A stretch of DNA of 9,853 bases from Nanobdellota archaeon. GTDB lineage: Archaea; Nanobdellota; Nanobdellia; SCGC-AAA011-G17; VGLX01. The stretch is taken from positions 1 to 9,853 of the forward strand of contig JAUYDG010000118.1 in assembly GCA_030691925.1 (NCBI GenBank), read 5' to 3'. The position numbers were made by a program, and so were the translations under genes. The notes beneath the pieces are model-generated. The model saw nothing but the letters and a program-made list of their open reading frames with translations, ran no database searches and had not been told where the DNA came from. Positions within the stretch are counted from its first letter, which is position 1; each line of letters begins with the position of its first letter. Shown piece after piece: positions 694 to 7,743 of this stretch.

Positions 694-1353
694 TTACCCT
701 ATCATTCCTAATAGGTAGAATACTAGTCCGTCTGCCAGTTTTATCAGGTCGTCTTCTGTCTGTCCTTCTATTATCACGCATCCTTTTTCGTCTTTTATTG
801 CTGTCTCTTCCCCTAGTTGCAGCATTATTATTGCTGTGTCTTTTGTTGCGTCGCTGCAGGTTTTTATTATGCGCTCTTTGTCGCCTTCGTATTTGCTGGT
901 GAATGCGCTCTTCACCGGTATCTTGAATAGGTAAGAATTGTCCAGGAACTTGTCTATTTCCAGCGCAGCTATGGTTGTTTTTCCCATAAGCCTTTGATCA
1001 TTAGGGTCTATCACTACGTATGCCTCTTTTTTTGTTATTACGTCCTGTTTGACGTCAGGGTTTATTTTCAGGCCGTTCATCTCTGCCGGCTCGTGCCTAG
1101 TGTATACGTACTTCGGGTTTGGGTCGTTGTTGACGAATATTTTTATTCTGTAGGTTATCCCTCCGTCCTTTGTTGTCCCTATCTGCTGTACATCAAATGT
1201 TTCCACTCCATGCGCGTACTGGTATGTCCCGTGCTTTATCTTTTGGCTGAAGAATGCGAAGAATCCGAATGCCAGCAGTATTATTACCAGGCTGTAGACT
1301 ATGACCTTTATTTTTTTCTCTTCTTTTTTTGTTTCTTTCTGTTCTTCTTCCAT
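694..1353 (-). CDS. Single-pass (N-in signal-anchor) membrane protein of unknown function, paralog of 1355..1939
   Basis: The 219-aa ORF has a K/E-rich N-terminus (MEEEQKETKKEEKKIK), one hydrophobic helix (VIVYSLVIILLAFGFFAFF) and a soluble domain of about 180 aa. Its C-terminal module, IIKTCSDATKDTAIIMLQLGEETAIKDEKGCVIIEGQTEDDLIKLADGLVFYLLG, aligns with the neighbour. The start ATG lies 1 nt after the upstream gene's TAA. Confidence 0.8.
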   Translation of the reverse strand: MEEEQKETKKEEKKIKVIVYSLVIILLAFGFFAFFSQKIKHGTYQYAHGVETFDVQQIGTTKDGGITYRIKIFVNNDPNPKYVYTRHEPAEMNGLKINPDVKQDVITKKEAYVVIDPNDQRLMGKTTIAALEIDKFLDNSYLFKIPVKSAFTSKYEGDKERIIKTCSDATKDTAIIMLQLGEETAIKDEKGCVIIEGQTEDDLIKLADGLVFYLLGMIG

Positions 1354-1354
1354 C

Positions 1355-1939
1355 TTATATGCCTATCAGTGAGAAGTATATCTTGTCTGTGGCTTTTATC
1401 AGGTTTTCGCTTGCCCCTTCCATCGTTAGGCAGTTGGCTTTGTAGCTTATTTTTGTTTCTTCTGCTTTTTTGAATATTACCACTGCCTGTTCTTGCGTTG
1501 CGTCTTCGCAGGTTTTTATTGGTAATTCCTCGCATCCTGGCTTGTCTTCTGTGCATGCGTATGGTTTCAGCTCTGTTATGCCTATCTTTTTTTTGAAGTA
1601 GTCCATCGCTCTTGCGTTTGTTTTTATGTCGTCTGTGCTTATGTACATCTTTTGCGAGTAGCTCATCATCTGGACGTTTTCAGGTATTTCTATACTTTCC
1701 AGGTCTTCTGGGCTGTATGACAGGGTTATTTGCTGGTTGTCTTTGTATGCTACCCAGAACCCTTGTTCTGATTTTAGGAATTTCAAGCCATGATAGTCGT
1801 ATTTTTCCTCTTCTTCTTCATTCATGTTTAATGCGCTGGCTACCATTATGAGTATTATGAATCCCCCTATCATGTATGTTAGAGTCCTTTTTTTTGAGAA
1901 CAGAGGTTCTTTTTTTTCTTGTATTTTCTTTTTTTTCAT
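1355..1939 (-). CDS. Single-pass (N-in signal-anchor) membrane protein of unknown function, paralog of 694..1353
   Basis: The 194-aa ORF has a K-rich N-terminus (MKKKKIQEKKEP), a TM helix (YMIGGFIILIMVASAL) and an acidic linker (NEEEEE), followed by a soluble domain. Its C-terminal module is LPIKTCEDATQEQAVVIFKKAEETKISYKANCLTMEGASENLIKATDKIYFSLIG. It has four Cys against two in the paralog. Confidence 0.8.
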   Translation of the reverse strand: MKKKKIQEKKEPLFSKKRTLTYMIGGFIILIMVASALNMNEEEEEKYDYHGLKFLKSEQGFWVAYKDNQQITLSYSPEDLESIEIPENVQMMSYSQKMYISTDDIKTNARAMDYFKKKIGITELKPYACTEDKPGCEELPIKTCEDATQEQAVVIFKKAEETKISYKANCLTMEGASENLIKATDKIYFSLIGI

Positions 1940-2890: not shown

Positions 2891-2920
2891 GTTTTTGTCG
2901 GATTATTTTTTTGGTTTATC

Positions 2921-2926
2921 AAAAAA
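2921..2926 (-). terminator. Oligo-T run (T6 on the minus strand) 12 nt after the stop of the PagL-like gene
   Basis: The minus strand reads TAG GATTCACATAC TTTTTT GATAAACC AAAAAAA. This is a T6 tract typical of archaeal terminators. It could also pair weakly with the downstream A7. Confidence 0.3.
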
Positions 2927-2937
2927 GTATGTGAATC

Positions 2938-3609
2938 CTATGAAGCCCCTAGCGCGTTGATTCCTTCGTTTCTCTTTGCTAGGCTTGCGTTTGATATGTG
3001 GTGGAACATTAGTTCTCCGTCTATCGACAAGTTTTTGCTTATCAGGTAGCGTAGTCCTATGCTTCCTTGCGGTGTGAATTCTATCGCTTGGCCTATCGCT
3101 TGTTGTTTTTGGTCTTCGTGGGCGTTGGTGTACACCATTCCTGCTCCGAGTTGGAGGTAGGGTGAGAGTTTTGATTTTTCCGGCACTATGTTATATCTGA
3201 GCAGTAATGTTGCGCCGGTTAGGTAGTTTCCAAATCCTTTGTGTATGAGCGAGTTTGATATTTCGGATATGGCCTCTAGGTTGCCTCTTGGTAGTATGCT
3301 CAGCTTTGCGGGGTTGTTTATCATCCAGCCTAGTCTTAGGTTGGTTTGGGCGTAGTTGAACTGTGGTGTTTTTGGCCCTAGGCCGCATGGTGAGTATAAC
3401 AGTCCAGAAATGGTTTGTAGTGATATTCTGTCTTTTGTGAAGATCGTGTCTAGGTATGGTTTTTCTTTTTCTTGGTGGCTGATTGTTTCGACTTTTTTTG
3501 GTGTGTTTTCATGGTTTTTTTGTTCGTTGGCGTATGTTGGGCTGGAGAGCGCTAAGTAGCTTGCGAGTATTGTGCCTAAAAACCAGGATGCTTTTCTTAG
3601 TTTCTTCAT
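2938..3609 (-). CDS. Secreted beta-barrel protein resembling the lipid A 3-O-deacylase PagL / acyloxyacyl hydrolase family. Its 3' end is possibly frameshifted.
   Basis: The 223-aa ORF has a Sec-type signal peptide (MKKLRKASWFLGTILASYLALSSPTYA / NEQ). It has alternating-hydrophobic strands (NLRLGWMI, GATLLLRYNIV, SPYLQLGAGMVYT, GSIGLRYLIS, LSIDGELMFHH). The near-C-terminal HHISNASLAKRNEGIN lines up with the P. aeruginosa PagL catalytic segment HYSNAGLKQPNDGIE as I recall it. Confidence 0.6.
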   Translation of the reverse strand: MKKLRKASWFLGTILASYLALSSPTYANEQKNHENTPKKVETISHQEKEKPYLDTIFTKDRISLQTISGLLYSPCGLGPKTPQFNYAQTNLRLGWMINNPAKLSILPRGNLEAISEISNSLIHKGFGNYLTGATLLLRYNIVPEKSKLSPYLQLGAGMVYTNAHEDQKQQAIGQAIEFTPQGSIGLRYLISKNLSIDGELMFHHISNASLAKRNEGINALGAS

Positions 3610-3648
3610 TTTTTTATGCCTATTTGTGGTTTAGGATGTTAGGTTTAG

Positions 3649-3656
3649 TATATAAA
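3649..3656 (-). promoter_or_regulatory. TATA box (AAAG TTTATATA C on the minus strand) upstream of the PagL-like gene
   Basis: It is centred about 43 nt upstream of the ATG at 3609, which predicts a leader of about 17 nt. Among the predicted first genes here, this is the only one with a leader of this length. The 8-mer TTTATATA is identical to that of the e2b2 promoter. Confidence 0.45.
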
Positions 3657-3693
3657 CTTTACGATTTGTAGAAACTTAATAGTAGTAACAATT

Positions 3694-4071
3694 TTAGCTG
3701 GAAGATACAAGAATGACGCCCATTATTATTACGCCTATGCTCAGCCATCTCATCTTGCTTATCTCTTCTTTGAACGCCATTTTTGAGCCTATAGCGGCAA
3801 GTACATAGTTGAGGCTTACCATTGGATAGATGTAGCTGAGCTCTAAGCCGGATATTATCACTAGCCATAATAAGGTGCTGCACGCGAATAACATGACTCC
3901 GCAGATGACTGCCTTGTTGGTGAACATCTTCAAAAGAGTTCTGAAAAGGTTCCGCGCTCCTTTGGAGAAAAGGGTCACTTCTCCTACGTTGTTCATGCCT
4001 TTTTTGAGCAGTAGTTGCCCGGCCAGCCCTATCATGAGGCTTACGAAAAAGAGTATGAAGTAAATGTTCAT
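3694..4071 (-). CDS. Half-size DMT/EamA-type transporter subunit, ArnE/ArnF-like (putative polyprenyl-phosphate-sugar flippase subunit)
   Basis: The 125-aa ORF has four predicted TM helices. SLMIGLAGQLLLKKG and LLWLVIISGLELSYIYPMVSLNYVLAAIGSKMAFKEEISKMRWLSIGVIIMGVILV resemble E. coli ArnE as I recall it (SVAGQLCQKQA ... [44 protein letters not shown]). Its ATG overlaps the upstream stop as ATGA (4071-4068). A GAGG lies 7 nt upstream (4079-4082). Confidence 0.8.
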   Translation of the reverse strand: MNIYFILFFVSLMIGLAGQLLLKKGMNNVGEVTLFSKGARNLFRTLLKMFTNKAVICGVMLFACSTLLWLVIISGLELSYIYPMVSLNYVLAAIGSKMAFKEEISKMRWLSIGVIIMGVILVSSS

Positions 4072-4436
4072 TTTTTAGCCTCGCTTTTTGACATCAAGAA
4101 GACTCCGGAGCATATTATTAAAATCCCCGCCATCCTTATTATCGAGAGGTTTTCTTTGAAGAATGCCCATGCTGCTACTGCAGTGATGATGTAGCCTATG
4201 CTGATCATCGGATAAGCGTAACTTAAATCAGCCCTTGACAGCGCTGAGAGCCAAAATATTGAGCTTGCGCCTACAGCTAGCATGCCGACGAGAATAAACG
4301 GGTTCGTGAATATGTTGACGTAGCTTGTCACCAAATCACCGAACTGGAAAGTGGATTGTTGCAGACCGTATTTTACTATGAGGTTTCCAGCATTTATCAG
4401 TATTACCGAAGCTAAAATGTATTTGAATATTTTCAT
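4068..4436 (-). CDS. Half-size DMT/EamA-type transporter subunit, ArnE/ArnF-like, partner of 3694..4071
   Basis: The 122-aa ORF has four predicted TM helices. It carries the same core motif (LSRADLSYAYPMISIGYIITAVAAWAFFKENLSIIRMAGILIICSGVFLM). The 4-nt ATGA overlap with the next gene suggests a heterodimeric pair. Confidence 0.8.
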   Translation of the reverse strand: MKIFKYILASVILINAGNLIVKYGLQQSTFQFGDLVTSYVNIFTNPFILVGMLAVGASSIFWLSALSRADLSYAYPMISIGYIITAVAAWAFFKENLSIIRMAGILIICSGVFLMSKSEAKK

Positions 4437-4462
4437 CTCGTACAGCTCTTACGGCAATGTGC

Positions 4463-4470
4463 TTAAAAAA
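4463..4470 (-). promoter_or_regulatory. TATA-like box (TTTTTTAA on the minus strand) for the transporter pair
   Basis: It is centred about 30 nt upstream of the ATG at 4436, within the 81-nt divergent spacer 4437..4517. Confidence 0.4.
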
Positions 4471-4487
4471 CTTTTGGGTTGGAAAAC

Positions 4488-4495
4488 TTTATATA
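4488..4495 (+). promoter_or_regulatory. TATA box (TTTATATA) with a purine-rich BRE-like GGAAAAC upstream, promoter of the e2b2-rbcL unit
   Basis: It is centred about 26-27 nt upstream of the ATG at 4518, which implies a leaderless mRNA. There is no Shine-Dalgarno-like sequence between the box and the ATG. Confidence 0.6.
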
Positions 4496-4517
4496 GAAAT
4501 TTGAAGTTATCTTCTTT

Positions 4518-5348
4518 ATGAACTTTGGGCAGATATGCAGGGATATAAAATCTTTAAAGATTCAGGGTGCTACTAATGTTGCAAGAGCAGGTATCCAAGC
4601 CTTGAAGCTGAAACACGATCCGGCTTCTGTTAAGAAGATAATCAGCTTAAGGCCTACAGAGCCTGCGCTGAGAAATGCTATAAAATTCTCTTTGAAGGAT
4701 ATGAAGAACAATCCTGATAAGGTGTTGAGGCATTTTGATGAAGCCCAGAAAAAGATTGCTGAGATTGGCGCTAGGAAAATACCTGAGGACTCTATCGTCT
4801 TTACCCATTGCCATGCTTCTACTGTTACTGGCATTTTGAAAGAAGCGTTTAAGACTAAAAAGTTTGAGGTCTACTGCACAGAAACAAGGCCGATGTATCA
4901 GGGGAGAAGAACTGCTATAGAATTAGCTGCTGCAAAGATTCCTGTCACGATGTTCGTAGATTCTGCTGCCCGCTATGCTTTGAAAAAAGCGGATATAATG
5001 CTTATCGGCGCTGATGCTATTCTTTCCAGCGGCAAGATAGCTAATAAGATCGGCTCAGAGCTTTTCGCAGAGGTCGCCAGGAAGTATGATGTTCCTGTCC
5101 TTGTCTGCACTGACGCATGGAAGTTTGACCCTATGACTGTTTGGGGGTATGAGGAAGAGATGGAGAAGAGGGAGACGAAAGAGGTCTGGTCCAACCCTCC
5201 TAAAGGTGTTAAGATTAGCAATATTGCTTTTGAGCTTGTAAGTCCTGGGCTTGTCACAAGCATAATCTCCGAGCTCGGAGTTTACAGCGTTGAGAATTTC
5301 ATAATAGAGGTTAAGAAGAGCTATCCGTGGATGTTTGATGTTCCTTGA
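4518..5348 (+). CDS. e2b2: Ribose-1,5-bisphosphate isomerase (aIF-2B/e2b2 family)
   Basis: The 276-aa ORF carries eIF-2B-family signatures: IQGATNVARAG, VFTHCHASTV (the Cys corresponds to the catalytic Cys of the T. kodakarensis enzyme) and IGADAILSSGKIANKIGS (catalytic Asp). Its length matches short archaeal e2b2 proteins rather than the longer MtnA. It lies in the same transcription direction as form III RuBisCO, three genes upstream. Confidence 0.75.
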   Translation: MNFGQICRDIKSLKIQGATNVARAGIQALKLKHDPASVKKIISLRPTEPALRNAIKFSLKDMKNNPDKVLRHFDEAQKKIAEIGARKIPEDSIVFTHCHASTVTGILKEAFKTKKFEVYCTETRPMYQGRRTAIELAAAKIPVTMFVDSAARYALKKADIMLIGADAILSSGKIANKIGSELFAEVARKYDVPVLVCTDAWKFDPMTVWGYEEEMEKRETKEVWSNPPKGVKISNIAFELVSPGLVTSIISELGVYSVENFIIEVKKSYPWMFDVP

Positions 5349-6435: not shown

Positions 6436-7743
6436 ATGGCAGAAGAGATCGAGTGGTATCATGAGTTCATAAACAAAAACTACAAGCCGAAAAAGGATGA
6501 TGTCAAAGTTTTGTTCTATTACGAGCCTGCCGAAGGGATAACCAACGAGGATGCTATCGGGAGGATTGCTAGCGAGAGCTCTTCCGGAACATGGACTACG
6601 CTGACAGAGCTGCCTAAGCTGCTGCCCAAGGTTAAGGCTTACGCTTACGAGTATGACAGCAATTATGTGAAGATTGCTTATCCGATAATCGACTTTGAGA
6701 AAGGTTCTGTGCCCTGCATGGTGAGTGCGATAGGCGGCAACATTTTTGGCATGAAAGCGTTGAACAACTTACGGCTTATCGATGCGGAACTTCCTTTAGA
6801 CTATATTAAAGATTTTAAAGGGCCTAACTACGGGGTTGACGTTATCAAGAGGATATTCAAGAGAAAATCTGGGCCTGTAACTTCAGTAGTCCCGAAGCCT
6901 AAGATAGGATATACCGCTGAAGAGCATGCGAAGAAAGTAGCTTACGCTGTCTGGAAGGGCGGAATAGACTGTGTTAAAGACGATGAAAACTTAACAAATC
7001 AAAGTTTCAATAAGTTTGAGCCGAGAGTAAAATTCTTAGCAAAGTATAGAGACAAGGCCATGAAAGAGACTGGTGAAGTGAAGGATGCCTTTATCAACGT
7101 TACTTCTTCTAACTTGAAGGAGTTGGAGAGAAGGGTCAAGCTGGTTCACGATTATGGATTTAAGTATTTCATGATTGACATGGTGGTTAGTGGTTTCACT
7201 GCTGTTGGAACTGCTGTCGAGTTAGCTTATGATTATGATATGGCCATACACGGTCATCGTGCAATGCATTCTATGTTCACTAGGAATCCTAAGCATGGTA
7301 TGACAATGCTTTTCCTTGCCAAACTTCTGCGTCTGATAGGCGTTGACCAGATACATACTGGCACTGGTGTTGGAAAGCTGGAAGGCTCTGCAGAGAGCAT
7401 AATGGCTATGGAAAAGATGCTTATGAACCAAGAAGTTGATAAAATCGAGAATGTTAGGATGCCTCAGAAGTGGGGTAAGATTAAGCCAGTACTACCAGTA
7501 TCTTCTGGAGGCTTGCATCCGGGTATAATTCCTGCTGTGTTTGATATTTATGGTACTACTAATATCGGGCTTCAAGTTGGCGGAGGTACGCTTGGGCATC
7601 CAGATGGCGCAGAGGCCGGGGCTAAGGCTGTTACGCAAGCTATCGAAGCATATAAACAAAAAATAAGTTTAGAGGAGTACGCTGAAAAGCATAAAGAATT
7701 GAAAAGGGCTTTAGAAAAGTGGGGTCATCTGAAGCCGATCTGA
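6436..7743 (+). CDS. rbcL: Ribulose-1,5-bisphosphate carboxylase/oxygenase large subunit, form III (archaeal type)
   Basis: The 435-aa ORF carries all the canonical catalytic and binding motifs: ASESSSGTWTT, GGNIFGM, VVPKPKIGY (K175/K177), GGIDCVKDDENL (carbamylated K201, D203, E204), AIHGHRAMH (H294/R295), VDQIHTGT (H327), GKLEG (K334), SSGGLHPG and GGGTLGHPDG. The C-terminus, HKELKRALEKWGH, is closely similar to the T. kodakarensis enzyme as I recall it. There is no small-subunit gene. Confidence 0.95.
   Translation: MAEEIEWYHEFINKNYKPKKDDVKVLFYYEPAEGITNEDAIGRIASESSSGTWTTLTELPKLLPKVKAYAYEYDSNYVKIAYPIIDFEKGSVPCMVSAIGGNIFGMKALNNLRLIDAELPLDYIKDFKGPNYGVDVIKRIFKRKSGPVTSVVPKPKIGYTAEEHAKKVAYAVWKGGIDCVKDDENLTNQSFNKFEPRVKFLAKYRDKAMKETGEVKDAFINVTSSNLKELERRVKLVHDYGFKYFMIDMVVSGFTAVGTAVELAYDYDMAIHGHRAMHSMFTRNPKHGMTMLFLAKLLRLIGVDQIHTGTGVGKLEGSAESIMAMEKMLMNQEVDKIENVRMPQKWGKIKPVLPVSSGGLHPGIIPAVFDIYGTTNIGLQVGGGTLGHPDGAEAGAKAVTQAIEAYKQKISLEEYAEKHKELKRALEKWGHLKPI

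What the first reader, a model, noticed from the sequence alone, without database searches (positions are those of the whole stretch)
2938..3609. Bacterial outer-membrane-type PagL / acyloxyacyl-hydrolase-like beta-barrel in an archaeal gene neighbourhood
**What the ORF looks like.** It has a classical Sec signal peptide and about eight amphipathic beta-strand-like segments. Its catalytic-looking segment, H-I-S-N-A-S-L-A-K-R-N-E-G-I-N, matches the P. aeruginosa PagL segment position by position as I recall it (H-Y-S-N-A-G-L-K-Q-P-N-D-G-I-E). His and Ser of the triad are conserved, while the triad Glu position aligns with Asn.

**Why it is odd.** PagL-family proteins are 8-stranded outer-membrane barrels that deacylate lipid A in Gram-negative bacteria. 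Archaea have no lipid A and no BAM machinery. Yet the gene has an archaeal-style TATA box and the same strand and composition character as its neighbours, and it lies in a window containing gatE.

**Possible explanations.**
- It was acquired by HGT and repurposed as an esterase.
- It is a secreted effector aimed at a bacterial partner's LPS.
- It is an assembly or binning chimera.

Among the predicted first genes here, it is also the only one with a leader of about 17 nt.
Basis: partly seen in the sequence, partly recalled or inferred. Interest (0 to 1): 0.7.

Follow-up and report, generated by a model that had tools for sequence, protein, structure and literature searches.

The report
Bacterial PagL-type barrel enzyme in DPANN archaea
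A gene for a bacterial outer-membrane-type lipid esterase (PagL family) really sits inside the genome of a tiny DPANN archaeon, was gained by gene transfer and is kept in a few such archaeal lineages, although the copy in this window has a one-base frameshift that cuts off its last strand.

Summary
The ORF at 2938..3609 (-) is a genuine PagL-family gene. It scores 63 bits against Pfam PF09411 (cut-off 23). The AlphaFold model of the intact allele is an 8-stranded barrel whose best PDB match is P. aeruginosa PagL (2ERV).

The archaeal setting is real and not a chimera. Six independent assemblies show the same joins, one of them reaching the type III RuBisCO gene. The gene's third-codon-position composition matches its co-oriented neighbours. 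A related archaeal genome has the same gene block without it: window 2891..3693 is an 803-nt single-gene insertion.

Three further archaeal genomes of a second lineage carry diverged copies in conserved synteny. All named relatives are diderm bacteria, so the gene is bacterial in origin and then spread within DPANN archaea.

This removes strand 8 and the aromatic C-terminus. Five sibling assemblies encode the intact 235-aa protein, which is under purifying selection.

Function is inferred only. It is probably an exported Ser-His-Asn lipid esterase, possibly aimed at bacterial LPS. Moderately interesting.

The parts
2891..3693 (-). 803-nt single-gene insertion (promoter plus PagL-like gene) relative to the syntenic relatives L019 and L020. 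In those, only 8 nt at the corresponding position (within a 46-nt spacer) lie between the second EamA gene and the SpoIIM-like gene.
   Evidence: In blastn of L019/L020 against the window, the alignment stops at window 3694 and resumes at 2890. The gene maps of L019 and L020 lack a PagL gene.
2903..3609 (-). Full extent of the PagL-family gene. It would encode 235 aa if the G run had five G, as in the sibling assemblies. The stop of the intact frame is at 2903..2905.
   Evidence: DNA alignment of the window with L002, L003, L005, L006 and L007. The restored translation is identical in length and C-terminus to P0001.
2938..3609 (-). The ORF as it stands in the window (223 aa, ends ...INALGAS*). 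It is annotated by NCBI as acyloxyacyl hydrolase, MDP2909092.1.
2946..2949 (-). Homopolymer with the frameshift: four G on the coding strand where five independent assemblies have five. The shift removes strand beta-8 and the aromatic C-terminus.
3529..3609 (-). Sec-type signal peptide (residues 1-27, predicted cut after T-Y-A). Its sequence pattern is shared by the archaeal-type clade.
   Evidence: Sequence, helix 2-21 in the model, and alignments of the clade.
2947..3426 (-). Beta-barrel domain as present in the window (residues 62-221: strands 1-7 and the first residues of strand 8).
   Evidence: AlphaFold2 secondary structure of the intact allele and Foldseek top hit 2ERV.
2956..3000 (-). 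Catalytic segment H204-I-S206-N-A-S-L-A-K-R-N214-E-G-I-N218. His and Ser correspond to PagL His126 and Ser128. Asn218 stands at the position of PagL Glu140.
   Evidence: Profile alignment to 2ERV. H204, S206, N214 and N218 are invariant in 68 relatives and in the 11 aligned clade members.
3649..3656 (-). Archaeal TATA-box consensus TTTATATA, preceded by a purine-rich BRE-like CGTAAAG. It ends 39 nt upstream of the ATG.
   Evidence: (2 matches in the window, both in promoter position; 0.51 expected by chance). L019 has the similar CGTAAGG-TATATATAC in front of the SpoIIM-like gene.

Best explanation
**What it is (shown).** This is a PagL-family (PF09411) outer-membrane-type beta-barrel gene of bacterial origin. 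It has become resident in a few DPANN archaeal lineages. In this lineage it arrived as an 803-nt single-gene insertion between a native pair of small EamA/SMR-like membrane proteins and a SpoIIM-like gene, and it has its own archaeal BRE/TATA promoter.

**How it most likely works (inferred from family knowledge).**
- The protein is exported through Sec and its signal peptide is cut after T-Y-A.
- After a polar linker, residues 62-229 fold into an 8-stranded barrel that has to sit in a lipid membrane.
- At the rim of the barrel, His204 and Ser206 (end of strand 7) act with Asn218 (start of strand 8). This is a His-Ser-Asn arrangement like that of OMPLA. They hydrolyse an ester-linked acyl chain from a membrane glycolipid.

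**Likely substrate (speculative).** The archaeon has no known lipid A or outer membrane. The most likely substrate is therefore the LPS/lipid A, or another ester lipid, of Gram-negative bacteria that the cell touches or feeds on. The small barrel would insert without BAM.

**This window's copy.** It carries a 1-nt deletion that removes strand 8. It is either a young pseudogene or a consensus error. Sibling populations carry the intact gene.
For: **Identity**
- Pfam PagL at 63 bits, against a cut-off of 23.
- Profile hit to 2ERV with His and Ser aligned.
- AlphaFold2 model with pLDDT 89.8 and eight strands.
- Foldseek top hit is PagL 2ERV; all other hits are bacterial outer-membrane barrels.

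**Bacterial origin**
- There are 189 and 317 relatives in the two searches. Every name that gives an organism is a diderm bacterium: Thermodesulfobacteriota, Deltaproteobacteria, Desulfobacteraceae, Methylacidiphilales, Verrucomicrobiia, Blastochloris.
- 75 of 80 metagenome loci have bacterial-type sequence and GC of 0.42-0.66.

**Real residence in archaea**
- The same junctions occur in L002, L003 and L005-L007, and partly in L008 and L009. L005 reaches e2b2, HAD and RuBisCO.
- Third-position composition is A3 0.49 / T3 0.03, identical to GatE and the other co-oriented genes.
- L019 and L020 show the empty site.

**Kept by selection**
- Between strain groups there are 8-9 synonymous and 2 non-synonymous changes, a pN/pS ratio of 0.06-0.08.
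- A second archaeal lineage keeps the gene in conserved synteny in three genomes whose flanking genes are 61-75% identical. L017 has archaeal/eukaryotic-type ribosomal protein uS10. L018 has eIF2-gamma, S6e, S24e, S27e, Spt4 and Rpb7.
- His204, Ser206, Asn214 and Asn218 are invariant in the 11 aligned clade members.

**One archaeal clade**
- NJ bootstrap is 98% for nine members and 61% once the window lineage is included.
- The members share a signal-peptide pattern.

**Link to bacteria is plausible**
- Published work reports murein-degrading domains in Woesearchaeota and Pacearchaeota. It leaves open whether DPANN have bacterial hosts (PMC8204110; PMC10936187).
Against: - No activity, localisation or expression data exist.
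- Archaea have no known BAM machinery, outer membrane or lipid A, so where the barrel folds is unknown.
- The copy in this window is frameshifted and has one private non-conservative change (F115S). It may be decaying.
- The gene is accessory: it is absent from the closest syntenic relative.
- Bacterial neighbourhoods of the subfamily give no hint of substrate.
- No member of this Asn-containing subfamily has been characterised as far as I could find, so even 'lipid A deacylase' is an annotation and not a result.
- Support for a single archaeal clade that includes the window lineage is only 61%, with a simple distance method.
Confidence: 0.5

Rival explanations
1. Same enzyme, but it works on the archaeon's own envelope. 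The barrel inserts from outside into the cell's own membrane, or into vesicles, and trims ester-linked acyl chains of scavenged or bacterial-type lipids that many DPANN must import. On this view it is a lipid-remodelling or fatty-acid-salvage enzyme, not a tool used against a partner.
For: The signal peptide is conserved within the archaeal-type clade. Two members have a lipobox-like F-A-G-C. The catalytic residues are conserved. The neighbouring genes are lipid-linked-sugar-flippase-like (ArnE/F-like, below cut-off) or SfLAP-like membrane proteins. However, the EamA pair was there before the insertion.
Against: No beta-barrel is known to reside in an archaeal cytoplasmic membrane. PagL-type active sites face the outer leaflet of an asymmetric LPS membrane (family knowledge). 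Nothing here shows that the archaeon has ester lipids.
Confidence: 0.2
2. Functionless passenger. The gene was picked up by transfer, drifts among DPANN genomes with insertion sequences, and is decaying. The frameshifted window copy shows the normal fate.
For: There is a frameshift plus a private F115S change in the window copy. The gene is absent from the syntenic relative. IS insertions or breakpoints lie directly 3' (L005-L007) and 5' (L003) of the gene.
Against: pN/pS is 0.06-0.08 between strain groups. The ORF is intact in five assemblies. The gene is retained in conserved synteny across three diverged genomes of another lineage. His, Ser and both Asn are invariant in the aligned clade members. 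An archaeal promoter is in place.
Confidence: 0.12
3. Non-enzymatic use of the barrel, for example as an adhesin, a receptor-like anchor or a small channel for attachment to a host. The esterase motif would be kept only for structural reasons.
For: Foldseek scores for OmpW, OmpA, NspA and OmpX are close to that for PagL. In one archaeal subclade the motif around the Ser has changed and gained four residues (H-A-S-C-G-N-F-I-L-N-N).
Against: His204, Ser206, Asn214 and Asn218 remain invariant even in that subclade. Sequence profiles pick PagL specifically.
Confidence: 0.08
4. Assembly or binning chimera: a bacterial fragment was joined to an archaeal contig.
For: None was found. The only oddity is the foreign family of the gene.
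Against: Identical junctions on both sides recur in independent assemblies of six other sequencing runs from two accession series. The DNA is 98-99% identical across the joins. GC is 0.433 for the gene against 0.428 for the rest. Third-position composition equals that of GatE. Other archaeal contigs of up to 105 kb carry relatives.
Confidence: 0.02

Closest known systems
PagL, lipid A 3-O-deacylase of Pseudomonas aeruginosa (PDB 2ERV; Pfam PF09411)
   Same: It has the same 8-stranded barrel and is the best structural match (TM 0.71 on the target). It shares the H-x-S-N-A-G-L...N-x-G-I segment, with His and Ser aligned position by position. It also has an N-terminal signal peptide and a last strand rich in aromatic residues.
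   Different: Identity is only about 17%. The triad Glu140 is replaced by Asn218. There is an extra polar N-terminal linker. The host is an archaeon without known lipid A, outer membrane or BAM. Activity is untested.
Uncharacterised bacterial 'acyloxyacyl hydrolase' subfamily of PF09411 (MAG proteins of Thermodesulfobacteriota, Deltaproteobacteria, Verrucomicrobiia, Methylacidiphilales, Blastochloris)
   Same: These proteins are 50-62% identical over the barrel. They have the same HHISNAG...RN.GINA.GG.G.TYFF signature, including the Asn, and the same length.
   Different: The bacterial members have unrelated signal peptides, usually end in D-x-L-W-x after the last strand, and sit in high-GC diderm genomes. 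The archaeal-type clade has its own conserved signal peptide. Most archaeal members end exactly at ...T-Y-N-F.
OMPLA / PldA, outer-membrane phospholipase A (from my own knowledge: His142-Ser144-Asn156 triad on a beta-barrel)
   Same: It is an esterase built on a membrane beta-barrel with a His-x-Ser motif and an Asn as the third residue. This is the arrangement predicted here, so the Asn does not argue against catalysis.
   Different: OMPLA is a 12-stranded, calcium-dependent dimer and is not detectably homologous. It gave no hit in any search here.
Murein-like lytic transglycosylase domain proteins of Woesearchaeota and Pacearchaeota (PMC8204110)
   Same: This is another typically bacterial, envelope-directed enzyme found in DPANN archaea. 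The authors read it as possible evidence of contact with bacterial cells.
   Different: It is an unrelated fold and substrate. Those are very large extracellular proteins, not membrane barrels.

Membership tests
PagL family (Pfam PF09411, lipid A 3-O-deacylase) | Significant match to the family profile above the curated cut-off | tested here: met
   63.1 bits against a cut-off of 23, E 3.8e-17, covering profile positions 4-131 of 136. All relatives carry PF09411.
PagL family (Pfam PF09411, lipid A 3-O-deacylase) | Eight-stranded antiparallel beta-barrel | tested here: met
   Met for the intact allele P0001: the AlphaFold2 model has pLDDT 89.8 and eight strands, and the top Foldseek hit is 2ERV. 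The window ORF itself lacks most of strand 8 because of the frameshift.
PagL family (Pfam PF09411, lipid A 3-O-deacylase) | Catalytic His and Ser (His126 and Ser128 of P. aeruginosa PagL) | tested here: met
   His204 and Ser206 align to them. They are invariant in 68 relatives and in the 11 aligned clade members.
PagL family (Pfam PF09411, lipid A 3-O-deacylase) | Acidic third triad residue (Glu140) | tested here: not met
   Asn218 stands at this position. It is invariant in the whole subfamily, bacterial members included. This defines a subfamily variant. It does not exclude membership by homology.
PagL family (Pfam PF09411, lipid A 3-O-deacylase) | Signal peptide and aromatic C-terminal strand typical of outer-membrane barrels | tested here: met
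   The signal peptide is judged by sequence inspection and model helix 2-21. The intact alleles end ...GGFIGFTYFFDKPKK. This ending is lost in the window copy.
PagL family (Pfam PF09411, lipid A 3-O-deacylase) | Location in an LPS-containing outer membrane, inserted by BAM | not testable with these tools
   The host is a DPANN archaeon. Only 9.9 kb of its genome was available, so the presence of BamA, Lpx or Lpt genes could not be checked.
PagL family (Pfam PF09411, lipid A 3-O-deacylase) | Removal of the 3-O-linked acyl chain of lipid A | not testable with these tools
   This needs a biochemical assay.
T9SS PorG (NCBIfam NF052316) | Profile match above the curated cut-off | tested here: not met
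   21.4 bits against a cut-off of 130. This is only generic barrel similarity.
Co-transferred lipid A modification island (ArnE/ArnF flippase plus PagL) | The ArnE/F-like pair and the PagL gene were acquired together and are of bacterial affinity | tested here: not met
   The ArnE/F matches are below cut-off (about 50 bits against 92-99). The pair is present at the same place in the relatives L019 and L020, which lack PagL.

The most novel reading that the evidence does not exclude
A small clade of DPANN archaea has domesticated a bacterial outer-membrane beta-barrel enzyme that must fold without BAM. The archaea export it to deacylate the LPS of Gram-negative bacteria they attach to, weakening the outer membrane or harvesting acyl chains. 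That would be the first molecular handle on DPANN archaea with bacterial hosts, and the first functional transmembrane beta-barrel made by an archaeon.
Probability: 0.2. Interest if true: 0.8.

Novelty: new member of a known kind. Interest (0 to 1): 0.55.

Why it matters
Transmembrane beta-barrels of the outer-membrane type are regarded as a hallmark of diderm bacteria and their organelles. PagL acts on lipid A, which archaea do not make. Here such a gene is stably integrated in at least two DPANN lineages. It is selectively maintained, has an archaeal promoter and has a clade-specific signal peptide.

This raises two concrete and testable questions:
- Can an archaeon make and place a beta-barrel without BAM?
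- Do some Woesearchaeota-like DPANN interact physically with Gram-negative bacteria? The literature states this as an open question (PMC8204110).

The protein is small and members of its family refold in vitro, so a direct assay is feasible. If it is only an accessory esterase of no special target, the case is one more bacterial-to-DPANN transfer, which is common.

Tried and rejected
- **Chimera.** Rejected: independent assemblies agree, composition matches, and an empty site exists.
- **Co-transfer with the ArnE/F-like pair as a lipid A modification island.** Rejected: the pair is native and is present in relatives without PagL.
- **Single-sequence search of PDB sequences.** It gave only noise. 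The profile search was needed.
- **Exact look-up of the 223-aa product in the contig index.** It failed, although the cluster look-up later found it as MDP2909092.1.
- **Target-site duplications, flanking repeats or a tRNA at the insertion.** None were found.
- **Neighbourhoods of bacterial subfamily members as a clue to substrate.** They are heterogeneous (TrpA, DctM, PQQ/PKD propeller, helicase) and include no LPS genes.
- **Synteny between the window and the other archaeal-type loci.** None was found.
- **Literature searches for PagL or a lipid A deacylase in DPANN or archaea, and for beta-barrels in DPANN.** They gave only incidental co-mentions.
- **The exclusive 8-member 'archaeal' clade first suggested by the tree.** It was not recovered with more sequences. 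The stable groups have 9 members (98%) and 12 members (61%).
- **Contexts of L011/L012, L013 and L016.** They could not be assigned to a domain.
Full report
**1. The observation**

The window has a 223-aa ORF at 2938..3609 on the minus strand.
- It begins with a typical Sec-type signal sequence, MKKLRKASWFLGTILASYLALSSPTYA|NEQ.
- It matches Pfam PF09411 (PagL, lipid A 3-O-deacylase) at 63.1 bits against a gathering cut-off of 23 (E 3.8e-17).
- NCBIfam gave only sub-threshold generic barrel hits: PorG at 21 bits against 130.
- NCBI already names the product 'acyloxyacyl hydrolase' (MDP2909092.1) in a MAG filed as 'Nanoarchaeota archaeon'.

- A profile of 68 relatives hits the sequence of the PagL crystal structure 2ERV (E 5.9e-4).
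- It aligns HiSnaglaerNrgiNalGgf with HYSNAGLKQPNDGIESYSLF.
- So His126 and Ser128 correspond to His204 and Ser206, and Glu140 corresponds to Asn218.

**2. A correction: the window copy is frameshifted**

- The closest database protein, P0001, is 99% identical but 235 aa long. It ends ...INALGGFIGFTYFFDKPKK, where the window ORF ends ...INALGAS*.
- DNA alignment of the window with five independent assemblies (L002, L003, L005, L006, L007) shows a single difference responsible. The window has GGGG (+ strand CCCC at 2946..2949) where all five have GGGGG.
- Restoring the base gives the same 235-aa product, with the stop at 2903..2905.
- The deletion removes nearly all of the last beta-strand and the aromatic C-terminus.
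- The window copy also has one private non-conservative change (F115S).
- This copy is therefore either a young pseudogene or carries a consensus error. Only read mapping can tell.

**3. Fold**

- The AlphaFold2 model of the intact allele used a 68-sequence alignment. It has mean pLDDT 89.8 and pTM 0.76.
- It shows a signal-peptide helix (2-21), a low-confidence polar linker, and eight strands: 62-72, 85-96, 109-124, 129-141, 148-161, 176-189, 194-206 and 217-229.
- Foldseek against the PDB ranks PagL 2ERV first (E 6.9e-6, TM 0.71 normalised to the target, rmsd 3.9).
- Every other significant hit is a small bacterial outer-membrane barrel such as OmpW, OprG, OmpA, NspA or OmpX.
- His204 and Ser206 end strand 7, and Asn218 opens strand 8.

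**4. The archaeal setting is real, not a chimera**

- The window encodes GatE (TIGR00134, 425 bits), type III RuBisCO (TIGR03326, 535 bits), a ribose-1,5-bisphosphate-isomerase-like e2b2 protein, a HAD hydrolase, a PHP protein, a SpoIIM-like protein and two small EamA/SMR-like proteins.
- Assemblies of six other sequencing runs reproduce the joins at 98-99% identity. L002 runs from the EamA pair through PagL into the SpoIIM-like gene. L005 (5.8 kb) runs from RuBisCO through HAD, hyp133, e2b2, EamA and EamA to PagL.
- GC is 0.433 for the gene against 0.428 for the rest of the window.
- The genome shows a very strong strand asymmetry at third codon positions. Minus-strand genes have A3 of 0.40-0.51 and T3 of 0.03-0.05. 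Plus-strand genes have T3 of 0.31-0.41.
- The PagL gene (A3 0.49, T3 0.03) is indistinguishable from GatE (0.51, 0.04).
- It has therefore either resided here long enough to be ameliorated or come from a genome with the same bias.

**5. It is an insertion**

- L019 (a 50-kb contig of NCBI assembly GCA_053533655.1) and L020 carry the same block as the window.
- The order is GatE-like, PHP, RuBisCO, HAD, hyp133 and e2b2, then EamA, EamA, SpoIIM and two membrane proteins. Nucleotide identity is 75-79%.
- There, the second EamA gene is followed after 46 nt by the SpoIIM-like gene.
- The blastn alignment breaks at window 3694 and resumes at 2890. Window 2891..3693 (803 nt) therefore replaces 8 nt of L019.
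- The insert holds only the PagL gene with 84 nt upstream and a few nt downstream.
- No flanking repeats or tRNA were found.
- The ArnE/ArnF-like pair next door was there before the insertion, so the idea of a co-transferred lipid A modification island is rejected.
- Upstream, CGTAAAG-TTTATATAC resembles the CGTAAGG-TATATATAC that precedes the SpoIIM-like gene in L019. The gene may therefore have captured or duplicated the resident promoter.
- TTTATATA occurs only twice in the window. One copy is here at 3649..3656 (-). The other lies 22 nt before the e2b2 start.

**6. Origin and spread**

- Relatives are numerous: 189 and 317 hits in the two searches. They are 50-62% identical over the barrel.
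- Every name that gives an organism is a diderm bacterium: Thermodesulfobacteriota, Deltaproteobacteria, Desulfobacteraceae, Methylacidiphilales, Verrucomicrobiia, Blastochloris.
- The whole subfamily shares HHISNAG..RN.GINA.GG.G.TYFF. The Asn in place of Glu is therefore inherited from bacteria and is not an archaeal change.

A small group stands apart.
- Its contigs are mostly low in GC (0.27-0.33; 0.41-0.43 for L016 and the window).
- Its members share a signal peptide of the form M-x-K-N-I-L-K-K-x-L-x-x-L-G-S-A-F-F-A-x-Y-x-A-L-S-x-P-V-Y-A.

Three members of this group sit in demonstrably archaeal contigs.
- L010/L017 has archaeal/eukaryotic-type uS10 (TIGR01046, 143 bits, against 75 for the bacterial model) and a Dph2 fragment.
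- L014 has the same synteny.
- L018 lies on a 105-kb contig with eIF2-gamma, aIF5B, S6e, S24e, S27e, Spt4 and Rpb7.
- These three share the block Dph2 fragment, PagL, SfLAP-like protein, hyp110. Flanking proteins are 61-75% identical and PagL is 48-64% identical. This argues for long vertical inheritance.

Further points on the clade:
- NJ bootstrap gives 98% for a nine-member archaeal-type group and 61% for the twelve-member group that adds the window lineage.
- In a scan of JGI metagenome contigs, 5 of 80 loci were of this type and 75 were bacterial-type with GC of 0.42-0.66.
- The simplest history is one bacterial-to-DPANN transfer, or very few, followed by inheritance and occasional movement among DPANN genomes.
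- The donor is unresolved. By distance, the nearest named sequence to P0001 is from a Thermodesulfobacteriota MAG.

**7. Is it functional?**

- Between the two strain groups there are 8-9 synonymous and 2 non-synonymous differences, a pN/pS ratio of 0.06-0.08. The numbers are small.
- His204, Ser206, Asn214 and Asn218 are invariant in the 11 aligned clade members. This includes a subclade in which the loop after the Ser has gained four residues.
- Most archaeal-type members end exactly at ...T-Y-N-F.
- These points argue for a folded, catalytically competent protein in the intact alleles.

**8. Mechanism**

Shown:
- Family membership, fold and conserved catalytic residues.
- A signal-peptide-like N-terminus.
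- An archaeal promoter consensus.
- Insertion into, and maintenance in, DPANN genomes.

Inferred from what is known of the family:
- The protein is exported by Sec and folds into a membrane-embedded 8-stranded barrel.
- It uses Ser206 activated by His204, which is oriented by Asn218, to cleave an ester-linked acyl chain of a membrane glycolipid.
- OMPLA also uses a His-Ser-Asn triad (my own knowledge). PagL itself was refolded in vitro for crystallography (my own knowledge).
- So neither the Asn nor the absence of BAM excludes activity.

Speculative:
- The substrate is the lipid A or LPS of Gram-negative bacteria in contact with the archaeon.
- This fits published notes that Woesearchaeota and Pacearchaeota carry murein-degrading domains, and that bacterial hosts for DPANN remain an open possibility (PMC8204110; PMC10936187).

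Rival readings are given with their tests in the rival-explanations section. They are action on the cell's own or scavenged ester lipids, a decaying passenger gene, and a non-enzymatic barrel.

**9. Comparison and novelty**

- By homology this is a member of the PagL family, in an uncharacterised Asn-containing subfamily. The enzyme class is not new, and the ORF is already annotated in GenBank.
- What appears to be undescribed is the existence of a DPANN-specific clade of this outer-membrane barrel. Full-text searches found no paper on it.
- I rate it a new member of a known kind in an unexpected host, with moderate interest (0.55).
- It would rise sharply if the protein were shown to act on bacterial LPS or to fold in an archaeal envelope.

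**10. Things seen in passing**

- An IS with a DDE_Tnp_1 transposase is inserted directly after the PagL stop in L005-L007. It has a perfect 16-bp inverted repeat and an 8-bp target duplication.
- L003 has a different upstream junction, 39 nt before the ATG.
- The RuBisCO gene is only 42% identical to the one at the same position in L019, whereas neighbouring genes are 61-86% identical. This points to in-situ replacement.
- The third-position strand asymmetry is extreme.

Noticed in passing
window 6436-7743 (+), compared with L019 6707-7993: The type III RuBisCO gene is only 42% identical in protein to the RuBisCO at the same syntenic position in the relative L019/L020. Flanking genes are 61-86% identical, and DNA similarity drops out exactly over this gene. 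This looks like an in-situ replacement by a divergent RuBisCO.
   Followed up: partly
L005 about 4179-5250 (also L006 and L007); corresponds to window about 2895-2902: In three assemblies an insertion sequence sits immediately after the PagL stop codon. It has a 320-aa DDE_Tnp_1 transposase, perfect 16-bp terminal inverted repeats (GGCTCTGTAGAAATCC) and an 8-bp target duplication (AATCCGAC). It separates the PagL gene from the SpoIIM-like gene.
   Followed up: partly
L003 1-147; corresponds to window upstream of about 3648: In one assembly the sequence upstream of position -39 of the PagL start is unrelated to the window. It carries a divergently oriented ORF starting MNKKEIVFLKNAYKRERDAKVRERIL. 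This is a second strain-specific breakpoint, located at the PagL promoter.
   Followed up: no
whole window, all genes: Third codon positions show an extreme strand asymmetry. Five of the six complete minus-strand genes have T3 of 0.03-0.05 and A3 of 0.40-0.51. The two EamA genes are less extreme (T3 0.10-0.16, A3 0.30-0.34). Plus-strand genes have T3 of 0.31-0.41 and A3 of 0.13-0.21. The + strand is T-rich at silent sites whatever the gene orientation.
   Followed up: no
window 3694-4436 (-): Two overlapping small membrane proteins (122 and 125 aa) give sub-threshold matches to the ArnE/ArnF undecaprenyl-phosphate-aminoarabinose flippase subunits (about 50 bits against cut-offs of 92-99). They are conserved in relatives that lack PagL, so they are native. 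Their adjacency to a lipid A enzyme homologue is coincidental.
   Followed up: yes
L017 1888-2175, L014 629-964, L018 9658-9951: In the second archaeal lineage the PagL-like gene always follows a short ORF (95-111 aa). This ORF matches only the N-terminal part of the diphthamide synthesis enzyme Dph2 and is 63-75% identical between genomes. No remainder of Dph2 lies nearby.
   Followed up: no
window 694-1353 (-) and 1355-1939 (-): Two adjacent proteins of 219 and 194 aa each have an N-terminal membrane anchor and match no family in Pfam or NCBIfam. They are conserved at the same position in L019/L020 (71-78% identity).
   Followed up: no
P0046 and P0098 (L014, L010/L017): Two archaeal-type members have F-A-G-C in the signal peptide, a lipobox-like motif, where the others have F-A-S/G-Y. 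Some copies may therefore be lipid-anchored.
   Followed up: no
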